Below are positions 21,172 through 31,329 of a stretch of 64,000 bases of DNA, one piece after another. The notes under the pieces are model-generated. The model worked only from the letters and a program-made list of their open reading frames with translations. It was not told where the DNA came from and did no database searches. The position numbers and the translations under genes are program-made. Positions within the stretch are counted from its first letter, which is position 1. Each line of letters begins with the position of its first letter. This DNA comes from Escherichia coli (lineage in GTDB: Bacteria; Pseudomonadota; Gammaproteobacteria; Enterobacterales; Enterobacteriaceae): NCBI RefSeq assembly GCF_001677475.2, contig NZ_CP015229.1; one strand, 5' to 3'.

Positions 21172-21208
21172 AAAAGCCGGGTGAAATTAAATCTTCCCGG
21201 CTTTTTTA
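21172..21208. terminator. intrinsic terminator closing cassette 1 (repeat-family hairpin)
   Basis: AAGCCGGG…CCCGGCTTTTTTATT; the same hairpin recurs after each immunity gene at about 25.8, 28.4 and 30.8 kb. Confidence 0.7.
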
Positions 21209-21212
21209 TTAT

Positions 21213-21542
21213 TTAACTCTCGTTCAGCACACTAAACATCCCGTTCCGCATCCCCTTAACCACCTGTTTAACCTGATAAAGTTCTTCCCGCAGCTCCTGC
21301 ACCTCGTCACTGTCAGCGATGATGGTCAGGTACCCCTCCGAAATCTTCACCGTGACACCCCGCCCGGTATCAAATCCCGCCTCAGCCAGCCAGTCGCCCT
21401 TGAGGTGCAGGCTGGGATGTTGTGAATAATACCGGGCTATACCTGTTGTGCGGTCCTGGTGGCGGGTTCTGACATAGCCGACTTTATAGCGGCGCTGGGT
21501 TTTGGAAATGGTGACTTCTGGCGTAATATCGTGTTCAGCCAT
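21213..21542 (-). CDS. SymE-family protein (type I toxin-like, AbrB/SpoVT fold), full length 109 aa
   Basis: …LHLKGDWLAEAGFDTGRGVTVKISEGYLTIIAD… aligns with my recollection of E. coli SymE (…[33 protein letters not shown]…); ATG start. Confidence 0.7.
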   Translation of the reverse strand: MAEHDITPEVTISKTQRRYKVGYVRTRHQDRTTGIARYYSQHPSLHLKGDWLAEAGFDTGRGVTVKISEGYLTIIADSDEVQELREELYQVKQVVKGMRNGMFSVLNES

Positions 21543-21781
21543 GATTAACTACTCCTGTTAGTTGCTTGTGGTGAGCGGCTGTTACAGGCGGCAACCTGTA
21601 GCAGTCGCGTTAAATATCAACGCATTACCTTCATTACCTGCTTCATCTTCTCCTGGGTGATCGCCATATCCAGAATACGGCAGATCACTTCCTGATCGTC
21701 TGCTTTAAGCTCATCAACCTGCTTACACAGTTCTTTTAACCGCTTGTTTTTTATATCGAAAACATCGCGGAAGAAGAAGGT

Positions 21782-22861
21782 GTGCGCCAGGCGGCCTACG
21801 CGCTCAAGCTGTTGCAGTCGGACGGGGAACTGACCATCGCCAGTACGGGCAAGGATGACGCCAGCGGTAACCTGGTCACCAAACAGTATACGGTGAAAGG
21901 CCCGGTGATGCTGATGCTGACCACCACCGCCATCGATGTTGACGAGGAGTTACTCAACCGCTGTCTGGTGCTGACGGTGAACGAATCGCGGGAACAGACG
22001 GAAGCTATCCACGCGGCGCAGCGTTACGCGCAGACGCTGGAAGGACTGCTGGCGGCTAACGAAAAAAGTTACATCACGCAGCTTCACCAGAACGCGCAGC
22101 GGCTGCTGCGCCCGCTCAACGTGGTGAACCCGTTCGCCTCGCAGCTCACGTTCATGAGCGACAAAACCCGCACCCGGCGCGACCACATGAAATACCTGAC
22201 GCTGATCCAGGCGATCGCCCTGCTGCACCAGTACCAGCGGGAGATCAAGCGCGTGGAGCATCGCGGGCAGGTGGTGGAGTACATCGAGGTCACGCGGGAG
22301 GACATCGCCCTGGCGAACCGCCTGGCACATGAAATACTCGGGCGCACCCTGGATGAAATGCCGCCGCAGACGCGCAAACTGTTAACCCTGATCCAGCAAT
22401 GGGTGAGCGACAGCGGTCAGGCGCGTGAGGCGATGCGGTTCACCCGTAAACAACTGCGTGACGCGGTACAGTGGGGCGACACGCAGCTCAAGATCCACCT
22501 GGCGCGGCTGGTCGAAATGGAATATCTGCTGGTCCACCGTCTCGGGCTGACGTTCTGCTATGAACTGCTGTTCGACGGGGACGGCAGCGCAGACACCGCG
22601 CACCTGTGCGGGCTGATCGACGTACCGGAACCACCGTATGACGTCGCCCGGTCGGGGGAAACGGTGAAGCAGCTGGCCTCTGGTCGGGCAGTGGTCGGCG
22701 GTCAGTCGGGTAAGGAAAAAACCGCCTCAGACCAGACACCACGAGGCTTACAGGCCGGAGCGGTCGGGGCAGAGGAAAAAGCCCTGTTCCGGCAGAACGC
22801 AAAAAAACCGTCCCGCAATCATACTGCGGCCCGTCCGGGCCGGAGCAACACGGAAGCATAA
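21782..22861 (+). CDS. mobile-element-derived protein, possibly a replication/primase-helicase-like fragment (unclassified, probably N-terminally truncated)
   Basis: 359-aa ORF with balanced composition in a GC-rich insert, followed by a tyrosine recombinase; GTG start with no obvious RBS; family assignment from memory only. Confidence 0.35.
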   Translation: MRQAAYALKLLQSDGELTIASTGKDDASGNLVTKQYTVKGPVMLMLTTTAIDVDEELLNRCLVLTVNESREQTEAIHAAQRYAQTLEGLLAANEKSYITQLHQNAQRLLRPLNVVNPFASQLTFMSDKTRTRRDHMKYLTLIQAIALLHQYQREIKRVEHRGQVVEYIEVTREDIALANRLAHEILGRTLDEMPPQTRKLLTLIQQWVSDSGQAREAMRFTRKQLRDAVQWGDTQLKIHLARLVEMEYLLVHRLGLTFCYELLFDGDGSADTAHLCGLIDVPEPPYDVARSGETVKQLASGRAVVGGQSGKEKTASDQTPRGLQAGAVGAEEKALFRQNAKKPSRNHTAARPGRSNTEA

Positions 22862-23065
22862 GTACGACTTCATCCGGTCGGGGCAACGGCTGCAATAGTC
22901 GGCCCCTGGTCGGCAGTCAGTCGGCGGGTAGTCGGGGTGCGTAAAACCCCCGCAGGCCGCGCCCGGCAAGGTTCAGGCCATGAAGCGGTCGGCCTGCCTG
23001 AAAATCACTGTTCCATCCTCTGTTCTTCTCTCTGTCGTACCGTAATCTCAATCAGGACAATCATC

Positions 23066-24095
23066 ATGACAAAACCCATCCCTCCGGGGCCGGAGGAACT
23101 TTACCTCAGCCGCCAGAACCTGACGCAGCGCCAGTATGTGGTGGTGTGGCTGGAATACCTGACGGCACAGAACTACAGCGCGATCAGCGTAAGCGACTAT
23201 CGCGAACGGGTGTTACCGTTCGTGACATGGTGTGAGGAGCGCGGGCTGATGTACGCGCCGCAGGTCAGCCAGCCGCAGCTTGAAAGCTATCAGCGCCACC
23301 TTCACGGCTACCGTAAGGCGGACGGCCATCCGCTGGCGGTCAGCGGTCAGGTGGGCCGGATAAGCGCGATAAAAATCTTTTACCGCTGGCTGCTGAAGCG
23401 GCATGTGATCCTGTACAACCCCGCCGATCTGCTGGAACTGCCAAAGCCGGACAAACGGCTTCCGGCGCAGGTGTTCAGTAAGGGCGAGACGCGGCAGGTG
23501 TTACAGAGCCTTGATATCAACACGCCCGTTGGCCTGCGCAACCGGACAATCCTTGAGGTGCTGTGGAGTACCGGGATCAGGCGGATGGAGCTGGCCAGCC
23601 TGATGTTGTGGGATGTTGACACCGGGCGCGGTGTGGTTAACGTGCGGCAGGGTAAGGGGCGTAAGGATCGGGTGGTTCCGGTGGGCCATGTGGCGCTGGG
23701 ATGGCTGGCAAGACGTGCGACCACAGATGACGCGCCAGCGCGACAGTGGTCATCTGTTCGTGACGAAATACGGCAGCGGGATGAAACGCAACACGCTGAC
23801 GGCGATGGCAGGCACCGCGATCCGGGAAACGGCACGGATCGACAAACCGGGCGCGTGCCATATCTTCCGGCACTCGATGGCGACGCAGATGCTGGACAAT
23901 GGCGCAGACACGCGGCATATCCAGGCGATCCTCGGCCATGAGAAGCTGGAGACGACGCAGATCTACACGAAGGTGGCCATAAAGCCGTTGCAGAAGGTTC
24001 ATGCGCGGACGCACCCGGCAGAGAAGCGGCGAAGGGAAAAGCGCGTGCAGCAGCCGGACGAGGCCACCGTATCGCCGGACAGCCTGAAAAGTTAG
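23066..24095 (+). pseudogene. tyrosine recombinase/integrase (XerC/D-like) with a frameshift near 23720
   Basis: N-terminal part in frame of ORF 22937..23941 (MTKPIPPGPEELYLSRQNLTQRQYV… to …[11 protein letters not shown]); C-terminal catalytic part in ORF 23613..24095 (…[17 protein letters not shown]…[39 protein letters not shown]) in another frame; AGGA RBS before ATG 23066. Confidence 0.7.
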
Positions 24096-30518: not shown

Positions 30519-30530
30519 GGTAAGAAATTA

Positions 30531-30815
30531 ATGAGTGTTGAATATGTTATACATGTCGATGATAAAGTAGATAATTTACTTTCTTTTATTGTCGAGAGAA
30601 TAAAGGAAAATCAACCATCCTCTCGAATTAATACTGACGGTTCACTTTGGATTCCATCTAGCTATTCAAATTGGATTGATTTTTCAATAGAAGACCATGA
30701 GGATGGTTTTTTTATTGTAAATAATTTAAATGGAAGTGATAGAGATAAATTATTTTCACTGATATTTACTGCCTTTCATGAATTATCTATAAAATATGAA
30801 ATAGAAGAAGTCTAA
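30531..30815 (+). CDS. putative immunity protein for orphan toxin C (94 aa)
   Basis: AT-rich ORF 12 bp after the toxin stop. Confidence 0.65.
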   Translation: MSVEYVIHVDDKVDNLLSFIVERIKENQPSSRINTDGSLWIPSSYSNWIDFSIEDHEDGFFIVNNLNGSDRDKLFSLIFTAFHELSIKYEIEEV

Positions 30816-30817
30816 TG

Positions 30818-30900
30818 AAAGCCGGGTTTTTGGACTGACCCCATAAAGTTGGACACCCAACTGATTAAGGTGCAGTCCAACATATTCCCGGCTTTTTATT
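30818..30900. terminator. cassette C terminator whose hairpin loop carries a palindromic insert of about 51 bp
   Basis: AAAGCCGGG [tttttGGACTGACCccataaagttggacacccaactgattaaGGTGCAGTCCaacata] TTCCCGGCTTTTTATT; arms identical to the other cassette terminators. Confidence 0.55.
30830..30880. repeat. miniature inverted-repeat insert (MITE-like) inside the terminator loop
   Basis: Terminal inverted repeats TTGGACTGACC / GGTGCAGTCCAA; resembles the IS150-like terminal repeats at 35621 and 37052. Confidence 0.45.
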
Positions 30901-30902
30901 AT

Positions 30903-31136
30903 TTAACTCTCGTTCAGTACACTAAATATCCCGTCACGCATACCCTTAACCACCTGTTTAACCTGATAAAGTTCCCTGCGCAGTTCCTGTACTTCGTTGT
31001 TATCTGCAAGCAGGATCTGGCAGCCTTCCGAGATCTTCACGGTAACGCCCGTGCCGATCTCAAATCCCGCTTCTCTCAGCCATTTTGCGCTGATTTTGAT
31101 TACCGGCGTGTCGCTGCGGTTGGGCAGATAACCCAC
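30903..31136 (-). CDS. SymE-family protein, copy 4 (77 aa)
   Basis: MGYLPNRSDTPVIKISAKWLREAGFEIGTGVTVKISEGCQILLADNNEVQELRRELYQVKQVVKGMRDGIFSVLNES. Confidence 0.6.
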   Translation of the reverse strand: MGYLPNRSDTPVIKISAKWLREAGFEIGTGVTVKISEGCQILLADNNEVQELRRELYQVKQVVKGMRDGIFSVLNES

Positions 31137-31329
31137 GGTACAGTGGCGCTGTGTTTTGGAAATGATATTTTTGTATTTAACCTGCTGATTAGATAGTAAA
31201 ATAAACTTCGTGCAGATAGCTTACTTTATCAGGGTGTGGCGGTAGCGTATGAACTATGATGCGGTGGTTTCAGGAATGTACGTACAAAATCGATAGTACG
31301 ATCCTCCAATCAGGTAGATTTGCTGCCCT

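What the first reader, a model, noticed from the sequence alone, without database searches (positions are those of the whole stretch)
21172..31320. Every Rhs toxin/immunity cassette is followed by a convergent SymE-family gene and a shared hairpin terminator
Four SymE-like ORFs (21213..21542, 25837..26070, 28453..28695, 30903..31136; all minus strand) each sit directly 3' of an immunity gene, sharing an AAGCCGGG…CCCGGCTTTTTT terminator. Copies 2 and 4 are also followed by an about 190-bp conserved leader that runs into the next cassette's DPIGL-coding junction. The repeating unit is therefore [core tail - toxin - immunity - terminator - symE-like - spacer]. SymE is an SOS-induced type I toxin normally silenced by the antisense RNA SymR; I do not recall it as a component of Rhs cassette arrays. 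Only copy 1 has an ATG start and full length; copies 2-4 start at GTG with diverged or truncated 5' ends. The genes could act as addiction or regulatory modules for the cassettes, or the conserved spacer could be the homology used for cassette capture.
Basis: partly seen in the sequence, partly recalled or inferred. Interest (0 to 1): 0.72.

Follow-up and report, generated by a model that had tools for sequence, protein, structure and literature searches.

The report
SymE stubs mark decayed Rhs-tip elements
The four SymE-like genes are real, but they are leftover ends of a widespread 6.5-7 kb mobile-looking module (SymE toxin, repressor, primase-helicase, XerC-type integrase, structured GC-rich element) that sits behind Rhs toxin tips and probably delivers new ones; every copy in this window is decayed.

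Summary
Four minus-strand SymE-family ORFs each follow an immunity gene and a stable A-run/hairpin/T-run terminator. The fifth cassette (31330-32062) has no symE.

The interpretation needs widening. In intact relatives across at least 12 genera of Enterobacterales the repeating unit is: DPxGL junction, toxin tip, immunity, hairpin, symE(-), SymR-like antisense RNA(+), HTH repressor(-), DnaG-type primase-helicase(+), XerC-subfamily recombinase(+), then about 0.9 kb of GC-rich non-coding sequence, then the next DPxGL junction.

An E. coli pair with and without the insert shows a 6,665-bp unit, or two units (15,000 bp), lying exactly between the rhs core and the displaced old tip.

In the window the unit behind copy 1 has lost most of the HTH gene and primase, and its xerC is frameshifted. 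Copies 2-4 lack a start codon, ribosome-binding site and the SymR-like region.

So these are relics, not four active addiction genes. The mobility and site-specific integration of the unit are inferred, not shown.

The SymE/Rhs/Prim-Hel neighbourhood was drawn in 2007. A 2026 paper I could not read reportedly notes Xer systems next to such arrays.

The GC-rich region holds a strongly covarying structure with no Rfam match.

The parts
16055..20737 (+). Main Rhs gene of the rhsC locus (kdpA/ybfA side). GC-rich core ending at the DPIGL junction (J) at 20285, then the toxin tip.
   Evidence: ORF and translation; junction; locus identity from EC554 annotation; GC 0.59-0.67 in the core against 0.35 in the tip
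20728..21168 (+). Immunity-sized ORF of the main tip (146 aa, no family match).
21171..21207 (.). Hairpin 1: A-run, GCCGGG stem, T-run. Bidirectional terminator-like.
   Evidence: sequence; -16.6 kcal/mol, z -4.7; conserved across genera
21213..21542 (-). symE copy 1. Full length, 109 aa, ATG start.
   Evidence: Pfam PF08845 E 8.9e-20; NCBIfam NF010128 42.6 bits, cut-off 132
21343..21471 (+). IsrA-like sequence, antisense inside symE copy 1.
   Evidence: Rfam RF01385 107.5 bits, gathering score 51. IsrA is a cis-antisense RNA in the Salmonella rhs island (PMC2330248)
21537..21611 (+). SymR-like antisense element over the symE copy 1 start codon and Shine-Dalgarno sequence. Two hairpins.
   Evidence: Rfam RF01809 39 bits, below gathering score 61, local E 8e-6; -36 kcal/mol, z -5.0; same position in 7 of 9 units of other genera
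21617..21764 (-). Remnant (C-terminal 49 codons) of the HTH repressor gene that precedes symE in intact units.
   Evidence: 96% identical to EC554 L001:13230-13509; HTH protein; RstR-family-like, 68 bits
21763..22861 (+). C-terminal remnant of the primase-helicase gene. A deletion of about 2.2 kb removed the HTH 5' part and most of the primase.
   Evidence: intact protein has DnaG zinc ribbon, Toprim and MTBMA_p00010_2nd domains
23066..24095 (+). XerC-subfamily tyrosine recombinase gene, frameshifted (two overlapping ORFs).
   Evidence: ORFs 22937..23941 and 23613..24095; homologue NF002331 528.9 bits
24096..25005 (+). GC-rich (0.67) non-coding right arm of the unit. It contains the covarying structured element R1 at 24105-24368 and ends at the conserved ...AAAAGTGTGAC..CCGAT right end.
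   Evidence: no Rfam match
25006..25790 (+). Orphan cassette 1: J at 25006, toxin tip to 25515, immunity ORF 25527-25790.
25794..25831 (.). Hairpin 2.
   Evidence: -20.4 kcal/mol, z -5.5
25837..26098 (-). symE copy 2. 5'-truncated stub: homology to intact symE stops at about codon 11, and there is no ATG, ribosome-binding site or SymR-like region.
26099..26263 (.). Spacer (leader) 2. Its last ~40 nt are a degenerate rhs core tail. An upstream part resembles the right end of the unit.
26264..28391 (+). Orphan cassette 2: J at 26264, toxin split by ISEc1 (26377-27667), toxin 3' part to 27993, immunity 28011-28391.
28414..28446 (.). Hairpin 3.
   Evidence: terminator scan; -19 kcal/mol
28453..28679 (-). 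symE copy 3, truncated at about codon 23 by a junction with an rhs core fragment.
28696..30815 (+). Orphan cassette 3 with a 1.4-kb core fragment (28696-30077), J at 30078, toxin to 30518, immunity 30531-30815.
30818..30897 (.). Hairpin 4, with an inverted-repeat insert of about 50 nt in its loop (about 30830-30881).
30903..31164 (-). symE copy 4. 5'-truncated stub like copy 2.
31165..31329 (.). Spacer (leader) 4.
31330..32094 (+). Orphan cassette 4: J at 31330, toxin to 31734, immunity 31736-32062, then a different hairpin at 32068-32094. No symE follows.

Best explanation
Each symE copy is the left-most backbone gene of a modular 'Rhs-tip unit'. The full unit runs: DPxGL junction (J), toxin tip, immunity, bidirectional terminator hairpin, symE(-), SymR-like RNA(+), HTH repressor(-), primase-helicase(+), XerC-type recombinase(+), about 0.9 kb of GC-rich structured non-coding DNA, then the next J.

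Each unit arrived at the 3' end of the rhs core, fused its tip to the core, and pushed the previous tip and immunity gene downstream. That is C-terminal displacement. Repeated arrivals give the array.

Older units then lose their repressor, replication and integration genes by deletion. What stays is the immunity gene, the terminator, a 5'-truncated symE stub and a short spacer.

In intact units, SymE is most likely the toxin of a retention or addiction module, held in check by the co-transcribed HTH protein and a SymR-like antisense RNA. The HTH protein probably also represses the divergent primase-integrase operon.

In this window all four copies are relics. Copy 1 is an intact ORF with its antisense partner but no repressor gene or operon promoter. 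Copies 2-4 are pseudogenes.

Shown: the architecture, its distribution, the insertion polymorphism and the decay. Inferred: that the unit moves on its own, that its recombinase acts at J, and that SymE is toxic.
For: Architecture:
- E. coli EC554 and SCU-113, Salmonella, Erwinia, Xenorhabdus, Dickeya and Photorhabdus all show the unit.
- So do 69 further loci from Citrobacter, Pectobacterium, Dickeya, Brenneria, Edaphovirga, Serratia, Photorhabdus and Xenorhabdus, with the order J, symE-, HTH-, prim+, int+, J nearly universal.
- 93 of 122 symE hits have the HTH gene directly upstream, and 89 of these are full length. 17 of the 26 without an HTH gene are 5'-truncated at variable residues, mostly at the distal end of arrays.

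Insertion polymorphism at this very locus:
- WP2-S18-ESBL-07 has core, tip A, immunity A, symE, ybgA.
- EC554 has a 6,665-bp unit, and STW0522-31 two units (15,000 bp), exactly between core ...GGTAACG and GATCCGATAGGG of tip A. Flanks are 99.2-99.9% identical.

Unit boundary:
- Draft contigs break at J. Dickeya contig L016 (6,943 bp) starts and ends with the same 15-mer at J.
- The right end is conserved across genera.

Mobility hints:
- At least 8 chromosomal places in Photorhabdus thracensis.
- Both the rhsC and the ydcC-side rhs loci in E. coli.
- Two circular 'plasmid' records made only of such units.

Decay in the window.

SymE control: HTH operon and SymR-like hits. TA-like reading of cHTH-SymE operons: Kawano et al. 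2007, PMC1891008.
Against: No excision, circle junction or integration was observed.

The circular records could be assembly artefacts of tandem repeats. The Shigella one equals one period of the SCU-113 tandem.

The strain comparison could also be produced by allelic replacement through flanking homology.

In that comparison a T/C difference at J position 3 stays with its own cassette. A crossover would therefore lie at or left of J position 2, where the rhs core and the right end of the unit share no identity. That is unusual for a tyrosine recombinase.

Cassette 3 in the window carries a 1.4-kb core fragment, which fits RecA-mediated displacement instead.

The family is almost absent from viral contigs and was never on E. 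coli plasmids, so the route of transfer is unknown.

SymE toxicity in these homologues is untested, and they score far below the SymE equivalog cut-off.
Confidence: 0.6

Rival explanations
1. First reader's reading A. The four symE genes are active type I toxins, silenced by SymR-like RNAs. Each acts as an addiction or regulatory module for its neighbouring cassette in this genome.
For: SymE family membership. A SymR-like element and an isrA match at copy 1. Weak isrA and Ssr1 matches antisense to copies 2-4. Transcripts from such regions have been seen in Salmonella (IsrA, PMC2330248) and Shigella (Ssr1, next to an Rhs gene, PMC4782007).
Against: Copies 2-4 have no in-frame ATG, GTG or TTG before the middle of the first beta-strand, no ribosome-binding site and no SymR-like region. 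Copy 3 lacks about 22 codons. Truncation points differ between loci and genera, as expected for decay. Copy 1 has lost its operon partner and promoter region. No LexA box is present. The fifth cassette has no symE.
Confidence: 0.1
2. First reader's reading B, which is Jackson's model. There is no dedicated recombinase activity. Tips are exchanged by RecA-dependent homologous recombination through circular intermediates. The homology comes from the rhs core or J region on the left and the hairpin/symE/spacer on the right. The integrase-primase block is a passenger.
For: Jackson et al. 2009 proposed exactly this (PMC2935791). Cassette 3 carries a 1.4-kb core fragment. The Shigella 8,758-bp circle equals one tandem period including a core fragment, as an RecA-made circle would. 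Different cargos sit between the same conserved flanks, J and hairpin/symE. xerC and the primase are often pseudogenes.
Against: Most displaced tips adjoin the right end of the unit exactly at J, with no core fragment. The recombinase, primase, repressor and a structured non-coding region are conserved as intact genes across at least 12 genera and always keep the same position relative to J. That is hard to explain for a passenger. Hybrid J regions, which crossovers inside 75 nt of roughly 80% identity would produce, were not seen in the informative E. coli pair.
Confidence: 0.25
3. The symE-HTH-primase-integrase block is an independent small integrative element. It targets the terminator hairpin behind immunity genes or the J sequence. 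It is not the vehicle of the toxin and immunity cargo.
For: The same backbone occurs with many cargos. The conserved block starts at the hairpin. Kawano et al. described SymE-cHTH-Prim-Hel in 'mobile islands' without reference to cargo.
Against: In the E. coli comparison the inserted segment includes the new tip and immunity gene and lies between the core and the old tip, not behind the old immunity gene. Tandem arrays start directly at the core and end with the right arm joined to an old tip. Contigs break at J, not at the hairpin.
Confidence: 0.07

Closest known systems
SymE/SymR type I toxin-antitoxin of E. coli K-12, and the SymE family neighbourhoods of Kawano, Aravind and Storz 2007 (PMC1891008)
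   Same: Same Pfam family (PF08845). An antisense SymR-like element covers the start codon in the same geometry. The 2007 paper already lists SymE with a cHTH regulator, with a primase-helicase (Prim-Hel), and next to 'haemagglutinin and RHS' genes.
   Different: These homologues score far below the SymE equivalog cut-off (about 45 against 132 bits). They sit in an operon behind an HTH gene. No LexA box is seen. In this window they are mostly pseudogenes. The 2007 paper did not describe the recombinase, the junction at DPxGL, the arrays or the structured region.
Rhs C-terminal displacement and orphan tip arrays (Jackson et al. 2009, PMC2935791)
   Same: A new tip is fused to the core, old tips are shunted downstream with their immunity genes, and circular intermediates are proposed.
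   Different: [quoted passage not shown] Here a recombinase, a replication protein and a repressor accompany most tips.
Recombinase-associated arrays of toxin or immunity genes: integrons, Bacteroidales rAID systems, XerC/D next to polyimmunity loci (Zhang et al. 2012, PMC3482391), Rhs-linked integrase-like genes in bee gut bacteria (Steele et al. [quoted passage not shown] 2026, as cited in 10.64898/2026.07.13.738213)
   Same: A Xer-like tyrosine recombinase is linked to arrays of interbacterial toxin and immunity cassettes. New cassettes enter at the expressed end.
   Different: Here every unit carries its own recombinase plus a primase-helicase, a repressor, SymE and a structured region. 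The recombinase scores well below the integron-integrase cut-offs (124.5 against 265 bits). I could not read the 2026 paper, so the overlap is unknown.
Small integrative replicons with a repressor divergent from replication and integration genes (CTX phage RstR/RstA/RstB with XerCD; P4-like and PICI satellites)
   Same: An RstR-family-like HTH gene is divergent from a replication gene and a Xer-type recombinase. Tandem arrays occur at the integration site.
   Different: There are no structural, packaging or transfer genes. The family is almost absent from viral contig collections. The target is a protein-coding junction whose 3' end is replaced by a new toxin.
IsrA (Salmonella) and Ssr1 (Shigella) small RNAs
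   Same: Sequence matches lie antisense to the symE copies. Both RNAs were mapped next to Rhs genes.
   Different: Only the copy 1 isrA match passes Rfam's gathering score. The Ssr1 matches are partial (at most 283 of 820 bits). The original papers did not link these RNAs to SymE.

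Membership tests
SymE toxin family (Pfam PF08845; NCBIfam NF010128 endoribonuclease SymE) | Significant match to the SymE_toxin domain | tested here: met
   Copy 1 E 8.9e-20, copy 2 (extended) E 1.2e-14. All four give NF010128 E 1e-10 to 1e-11.
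SymE toxin family (Pfam PF08845; NCBIfam NF010128 endoribonuclease SymE) | Equivalog-level identity with E. coli SymE (NCBIfam cut-off 132 bits) | tested here: not met
   41-45 bits. These are family members, not SymE orthologues.
SymE/SymR type I toxin-antitoxin system | Cis-antisense SymR RNA over the symE translation start | tested here: inconclusive
   Copy 1: RF01809 39 bits, below gathering score 61, in the right place and strand. Same in 7 of 9 units of other genera at 37-53 bits. Absent from copies 2-4. No transcript data.
SymE/SymR type I toxin-antitoxin system | SOS (LexA) control | tested here: not met
   No CTGT-N8-ACAG in the window. The consensus search was exact only.
SymE/SymR type I toxin-antitoxin system | Toxicity of the protein on expression | not testable with these tools
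   Needs an expression assay. Copies 2-4 lack a usable start.
Rhs C-terminal displacement array (orphan tips) | Full-length Rhs followed by tip and immunity pairs that each begin at the conserved DPxGL...DPLGL coding junction | tested here: met
   Junctions at 20285, 25006, 26264, 30078 and 31330. TIGR03696 tail matches.
Integrative mobile element with a tyrosine recombinase | Element-encoded tyrosine recombinase next to one end | tested here: met
   NF002331 528.9 bits for the E. coli homologue. Always next to the right arm. Frameshifted in the window.
Integrative mobile element with a tyrosine recombinase | Occupied and empty alleles of the same site, with direct repeats at both ends | tested here: met
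   L089 against L001 and L090: 6,665-bp and 15,000-bp inserts exactly at J, with about 71-bp imperfect direct repeats. Allelic replacement cannot be excluded.
Integrative mobile element with a tyrosine recombinase | Circular excised form | tested here: inconclusive
   Two circular 'plasmid' records consist only of such units. They may be tandem-repeat assembly artefacts.
Integrative mobile element with a tyrosine recombinase | Defined core site with identical overlap region in attP and attB | tested here: inconclusive
   A near-invariant 14-mer GAYCCGATAGGGCT lies at every junction. In the informative pair the crossover maps to or left of position 2, where the flanks differ.
Integron | IntI-type integrase (NCBIfam TIGR02249 or NF011946) and attC-bounded promoterless cassettes | tested here: not met
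   124.5 bits against cut-off 265, and 65.8 against 435. Every unit has its own recombinase. attC features were not examined.
Intrinsic (rho-independent) terminator | Stable GC-rich hairpin followed by a U-run | tested here: met
   Four hairpins at -16.6 to -40 kcal/mol, z -4.7 to -7.4, with T-runs on both strands. Only hairpin 3 passes the strict loop limit of the scan. Function is not shown.
Rfam isrA (RF01385) | Score at or above the gathering threshold | tested here: met
   Copy 1 scores 107.5 bits against 51. Copies 2-4 score 33-35 bits, below it.

The most novel reading that the evidence does not exclude
Rhs C-terminal displacement in Enterobacterales is driven largely by a dedicated family of self-replicating integrative 'tip carriers'. 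Each carries one toxin tip and its immunity gene. Each uses its own XerC-type recombinase to insert precisely at the DPxGL codons of an rhs gene, possibly with help from a previously undescribed GC-rich structured RNA or single-stranded DNA element of about 0.9 kb. This swaps the expressed toxin and archives the old immunity gene. SymE, the HTH repressor and the SymR-like RNA form the carrier's retention switch.
Probability: 0.3. Interest if true: 0.8.

Novelty: new variant of a known kind. Interest (0 to 1): 0.55.

Why it matters
How Rhs and other polymorphic toxins acquire new tips while keeping old immunity genes has been explained only by host homologous recombination with hypothetical circles. 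The 2009 model noted explicitly that no integrase was known to accompany Rhs.

The symE stubs in this window point to a compact, widespread unit that has everything an autonomous vehicle would need: a recombinase, a replication protein, a repressor and a toxin-antitoxin-like module. It also has a sharply defined junction at the toxin-fusion point.

That makes the question directly testable, by circle-junction PCR, integrase-dependent integration assays and repressor deletion.

It also re-reads two published 'island sRNAs' (IsrA and Ssr1) as antisense partners of SymE-family genes or pseudogenes.

Finally, it adds a large covarying non-coding structure with no Rfam family.

For genome annotation, the short 'SymE family toxin' calls next to Rhs orphans are mostly pseudogene stubs.

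Tried and rejected
1. LexA box search (CTGT-N8-ACAG) in the window: no match.

2. A coding reading of the GC-rich 0.9 kb region. ORFs there look like composition artefacts. tblastn similarity between genera jumps between frames, and the Xenorhabdus ORF is broken. Rejected in favour of non-coding.

3. Rfam on the whole region. Nothing matched in 24096-25005.

4. Scan of viral contigs with a loose motif from the structured element. It gave 120 or more chance hits and none matched model R1. A viral-contig scan with the integrase profile found one close fragment only. A phage-borne or satellite reading is therefore not supported.

5. Primase against phage records: only distant N-terminal primase-domain similarity, 27-28%.

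6. Mapping the crossover point from the occupied and empty alleles and from cassettes seen with two kinds of left flank. The boundary is exact at J. Most pairs are tandem same-cargo units and so uninformative. The one informative pair places the crossover where attB and attP share no identity. Left unexplained.

7. Literature. One search for 'IsrA' was wasted on prefix matches to 'Israel'. Searches combining Rhs with primase, integrase, XerC or tyrosine recombinase found no description of the unit. Martinkus et al. 2026 could not be opened.

8. Family searches of the window's toxin tips and immunity proteins. Only the Rhs tail matched, with no toxin or immunity family.

Full report
WHAT IS IN THE WINDOW

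The region is the rhsC locus of an Escherichia coli-like genome. kdpA and ybfA lie on the left and ybgA on the right. The housekeeping flank is 98% identical to E. coli.

A full-length Rhs gene (16055-20737) ends in the conserved DPIGL...DPLGL junction, which I call J (20285). A toxin tip and an immunity-sized ORF follow. Four more tip/immunity cassettes begin at J-type junctions at 25006, 26264, 30078 and 31330. Cassette 2 is split by ISEc1. Cassette 3 carries a 1.4-kb rhs core fragment.

CHECK OF THE OBSERVATION

The four minus-strand ORFs are SymE family. Pfam PF08845 gives E 8.9e-20 for copy 1 and 1.2e-14 for copy 2. NCBIfam NF010128 gives E 1e-10 to 1e-11 for all four, but at 41-45 bits against a cut-off of 132.

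Copies 2-4 are 95-96% identical to one another and about 80% identical to copy 1.

Each copy is separated from the preceding immunity gene by an A-run/GCCGGG-stem/T-run hairpin. These fold at -16.6 to -40 kcal/mol with z -4.7 to -7.4. The copy-4 hairpin has an inverted-repeat insert of about 50 nt in its loop.

The 193-nt leader shared by copies 2 and 4 is real. It is 82% identical overall, 95% in its first 110 nt.

'Every cassette' is not correct. The fifth cassette has a different hairpin and no symE.

THE COPIES ARE DECAYED

An intact 97-aa homologue exists in E. coli EC554. Aligned against it and others, copies 2 and 4 lose homology at about codon 11. They have no in-frame start upstream of a GTG that lies inside the first beta-strand, no Shine-Dalgarno sequence and no upstream antisense element. 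Copy 3 is cut at about codon 23 by the core fragment.

Copy 1 is a complete ORF. The sequence upstream of it is the last 49 codons of an HTH gene (21617-21764), joined directly to the last third of a primase gene (21763-22861). A frameshifted xerC follows (23066-24095). A deletion of about 2.2 kb removed the rest.

THE REAL REPEATING UNIT

In EC554 (same locus) and SCU-113 (the rhs locus near ydcC) the annotated order is: tip, immunity, SymE(-), HTH(-), DNA primase(+), XerC(+), a short Rhs fragment, then the next tip. In SCU-113 this occurs twice.

The recombinase family spans Escherichia, Salmonella, Citrobacter, Pantoea, Pectobacterium, Dickeya, Brenneria, Lonsdalea, Erwinia, Xenorhabdus, Photorhabdus and Serratia.

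Gene neighbourhoods show the same unit in tandem behind Rhs genes in Salmonella, Erwinia pyrifoliae (at least 4 units), Xenorhabdus nematophila, Dickeya and Photorhabdus. The cargos differ: ribonuclease/barstar, HNH/Imm50, Endonuclease_NS_2/SUKH and others.

A profile scan of one genome per species returned 347 relatives. In the 69 loci kept, the order J, symE-, HTH-, prim+, int+, J is almost universal. Photorhabdus thracensis alone has at least 8 places.

Of 122 symE hits, 93 have the HTH gene upstream, and 89 of those are full length. Of the 26 without it, 17 are 5'-truncated at varying residues, typically at the far end of an array. Stubs like copies 2-4 are therefore a general end-state.

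In E. coli the backbone is in 218 of 5,426 complete genomes. It is at least 80% complete in 54, and never on plasmids.

The proteins are:
- an XerC-subfamily recombinase (NF002331, 528.9 bits);
- a DnaG-type primase fused to a helicase-like C-terminal domain;
- an HTH protein closest to the RstR repressor family (68 bits, cut-off 80).

BOUNDARIES AND INSERTION POLYMORPHISM

The right end of the unit is conserved between genera (...AAAAGTAYGAY-GGCGTC-GGGATnGTyCC...) and always abuts the first base of J, GAYCCGATAGGGCT.

Draft contigs break there. A 6,943-bp Dickeya contig begins and ends with the same 15-mer at J.

At the rhsC locus itself three alleles exist:
- WP2-S18-ESBL-07 has core, tip A, immunity A, symE, ybgA.
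- EC554 has 6,665 bp inserted exactly between the core (...GGTAACG) and GATCCGATAGGG of tip A. The insert is a new tip B, immunity B, symE, HTH, primase, xerC and the GC-rich arm.
- STW0522-31 has two such units, 15,000 bp.

The flanks are 99.2-99.9% identical. The left homology runs 71 nt past J and the right homology starts at J, so the insert is bounded by imperfect direct repeats.

The insert contains the new tip. That argues against the backbone being a separate element that merely lands next to cassettes.

LIMITS OF THE MOBILITY ARGUMENT

Allelic replacement by flanking homology could produce the same comparison.

The T/C difference at J position 3 stays with its own cassette. A crossover would therefore lie at or left of position 2, where the core and the right end of the unit share no identity. 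I cannot explain this under a standard tyrosine-recombinase scheme.

Two circular 'plasmid' records consist only of such units: S. flexneri SWHIN_104 (8,758 bp) and Lonsdalea populi N-5-1 (11,289 bp). The former equals one period of the SCU-113 tandem at 99%. They may be episomes, RecA-made circles or assembly artefacts.

The family is nearly absent from viral contigs.

CONTROL OF symE

Rfam finds a SymR-like two-hairpin element on the plus strand, exactly over the copy 1 start codon and Shine-Dalgarno sequence. It scores 39 bits, below the gathering score of 61, and folds at -36 kcal/mol with z -5.0. Equivalent hits of 37-53 bits occur at the same place in 7 of 9 units from Pectobacterium, Salmonella, Dickeya, Photorhabdus and Citrobacter.

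An isrA match above threshold lies antisense inside copy 1 (107.5 bits). Partial Ssr1 matches cover all four copies.

IsrA was mapped as a cis-antisense RNA in the Salmonella rhs island, with expression inverse to its overlapping gene (PMC2330248). Ssr1 lies next to an Rhs gene in Shigella (PMC4782007).

Intact homologues thus combine an upstream HTH gene, the arrangement Kawano et al. read as toxin-antitoxin-like, with a SymR-like antisense element. No LexA box is present in the window.

A STRUCTURED NON-CODING ARM

The 0.9-1.2 kb between the recombinase gene and J is GC 0.61-0.68 in every genus, including AT-rich Xenorhabdus and Photorhabdus. It has no conserved reading frame but shows patches of 80-95% nucleotide identity. 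In the window it is 92-94% identical to SCU-113, while xerC itself is only 77% identical.

A plain MAFFT alignment of its first ~265 nt from 11 units gives a multi-helix fold. In it, 94.4% of cells are paired against 83.4% in shuffles. 25 of 58 pairs show changes on both sides against 14.1 in shuffles. No shuffle out of 500 reached the observed values. Slid controls give 31-47% paired.

A covariance model finds one plus-strand copy (89-242 bits) just downstream of every recombinase gene. The minus strand scores at most 36 bits. In 78 distinct sequences, 32 of 58 pairs show compensatory change.

The window copy (24105-24368) folds at -146 kcal/mol with z -5.7. No Rfam family matches.

The strand bias and the G-U pairs point to a plus-strand RNA or single-stranded DNA function. 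I cannot tell which. Its role could be origin, recombination cofactor, or leader of the displaced cassette, and remains unknown.

INTERPRETATION

The symE copies follow each cassette because symE is the first backbone gene behind the cargo of a tip-carrying unit. The spacer and stub are what deletion leaves.

I rate as near certain that the copies are relics of this unit. I rate as likely (about 0.6) that the unit is or was a mobile vehicle for tips. I rate as uncertain (about 0.3-0.4) that its recombinase acts site-specifically at J.

RecA-mediated displacement (Jackson et al. 2009) clearly also operates, as cassette 3 shows.

PRIOR KNOWLEDGE

Kawano et al. 2007 drew SymE with cHTH, Prim-Hel and RHS/haemagglutinin neighbours. 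Zhang et al. 2012 noted XerC/D beside polyimmunity loci. Steele et al. 2017 noted Rhs-linked integrase-like genes.

A 2026 preprint cites Martinkus et al. [quoted passage not shown] I could not read that paper.

Searches found no description of the full unit, its junction or the structured arm.

I therefore file the finding as a new variant of a known kind, of moderate interest. The structured element and the testable carrier hypothesis are the parts most likely to be new.

Noticed in passing
window 24096-25005 (R1 core 24105-24368, + strand): GC-rich (0.67) non-coding stretch downstream of the xerC pseudogene. It holds a strongly covarying multi-helix structure found after every recombinase gene of this family in at least 10 genera. 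It is strand-specific and has no Rfam match.
   Followed up: yes
window 30830-30881, inside the loop of the copy-4 hairpin: Insert of about 50 nt with terminal inverted repeats (TTGGACTGACC...GGTGCAGTCCAA) that extends the hairpin to -40 kcal/mol. Parts of it recur, unannotated, in 468 of 5,426 E. coli genomes. From memory it resembles IS3-family terminal repeats. This was not tested.
   Followed up: partly
window 26377-27667: An ISEc1 (H-repeat, ISAs1 family) copy splits the toxin ORF of orphan cassette 2. A second, partial copy lies at 32743-33534, next to a transposase fragment on the minus strand (32128-32583). These replace whatever once followed the fifth cassette.
   Followed up: partly
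window 28696-30077: A 1.4-kb rhs core fragment precedes orphan tip 3 and truncates symE copy 3. This is the signature of homologous-recombination displacement, in contrast to the core-less junctions of the other orphans.
   Followed up: partly
window 16000-25000 against 20500-21000 and 25500-26000 (composition): The primase and recombinase remnants and the non-coding arm share the high GC of the rhs core (0.58-0.68). Tips, immunity genes and symE are 0.32-0.50. The backbone of the unit and the rhs core may share an origin.
   Followed up: no
L018 (NZ_CP055112.1, 8,758 bp) and L019 (NZ_CP072857.1, 11,289 bp): Two GenBank 'complete circular plasmids' consist only of Rhs-tip units. The Lonsdalea one also carries a RelE/DinJ pair next to xerC. 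They are possible episomal forms or assembly artefacts.
   Followed up: partly
L089 9815-10144, L001 19594-19923, L090 16815-17144 (E. coli rhsC locus, next to ybgA): A full-length 109-aa symE with its SymR-like upstream region but no HTH gene sits at the distal border of the locus in all three alleles, including the one without any unit. It could be the oldest relic, or part of the original target.
   Followed up: partly
window 26010-26027, 28626-28643, 31076-31093 (+ strand, inside symE copies 2-4): A small terminator-like hairpin (TCAGCCATTTTGCGCTGA followed by a T-run) lies antisense within each symE stub. It coincides with the weak isrA matches and may end an antisense transcript.
   Followed up: no
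L003 2213-2288: In E. coli SCU-113 an orphan tip follows the previous immunity gene after only 75 nt. A spacer-type degenerate core tail lies between them and there is no symE. Cassettes without any symE also occur.
   Followed up: no
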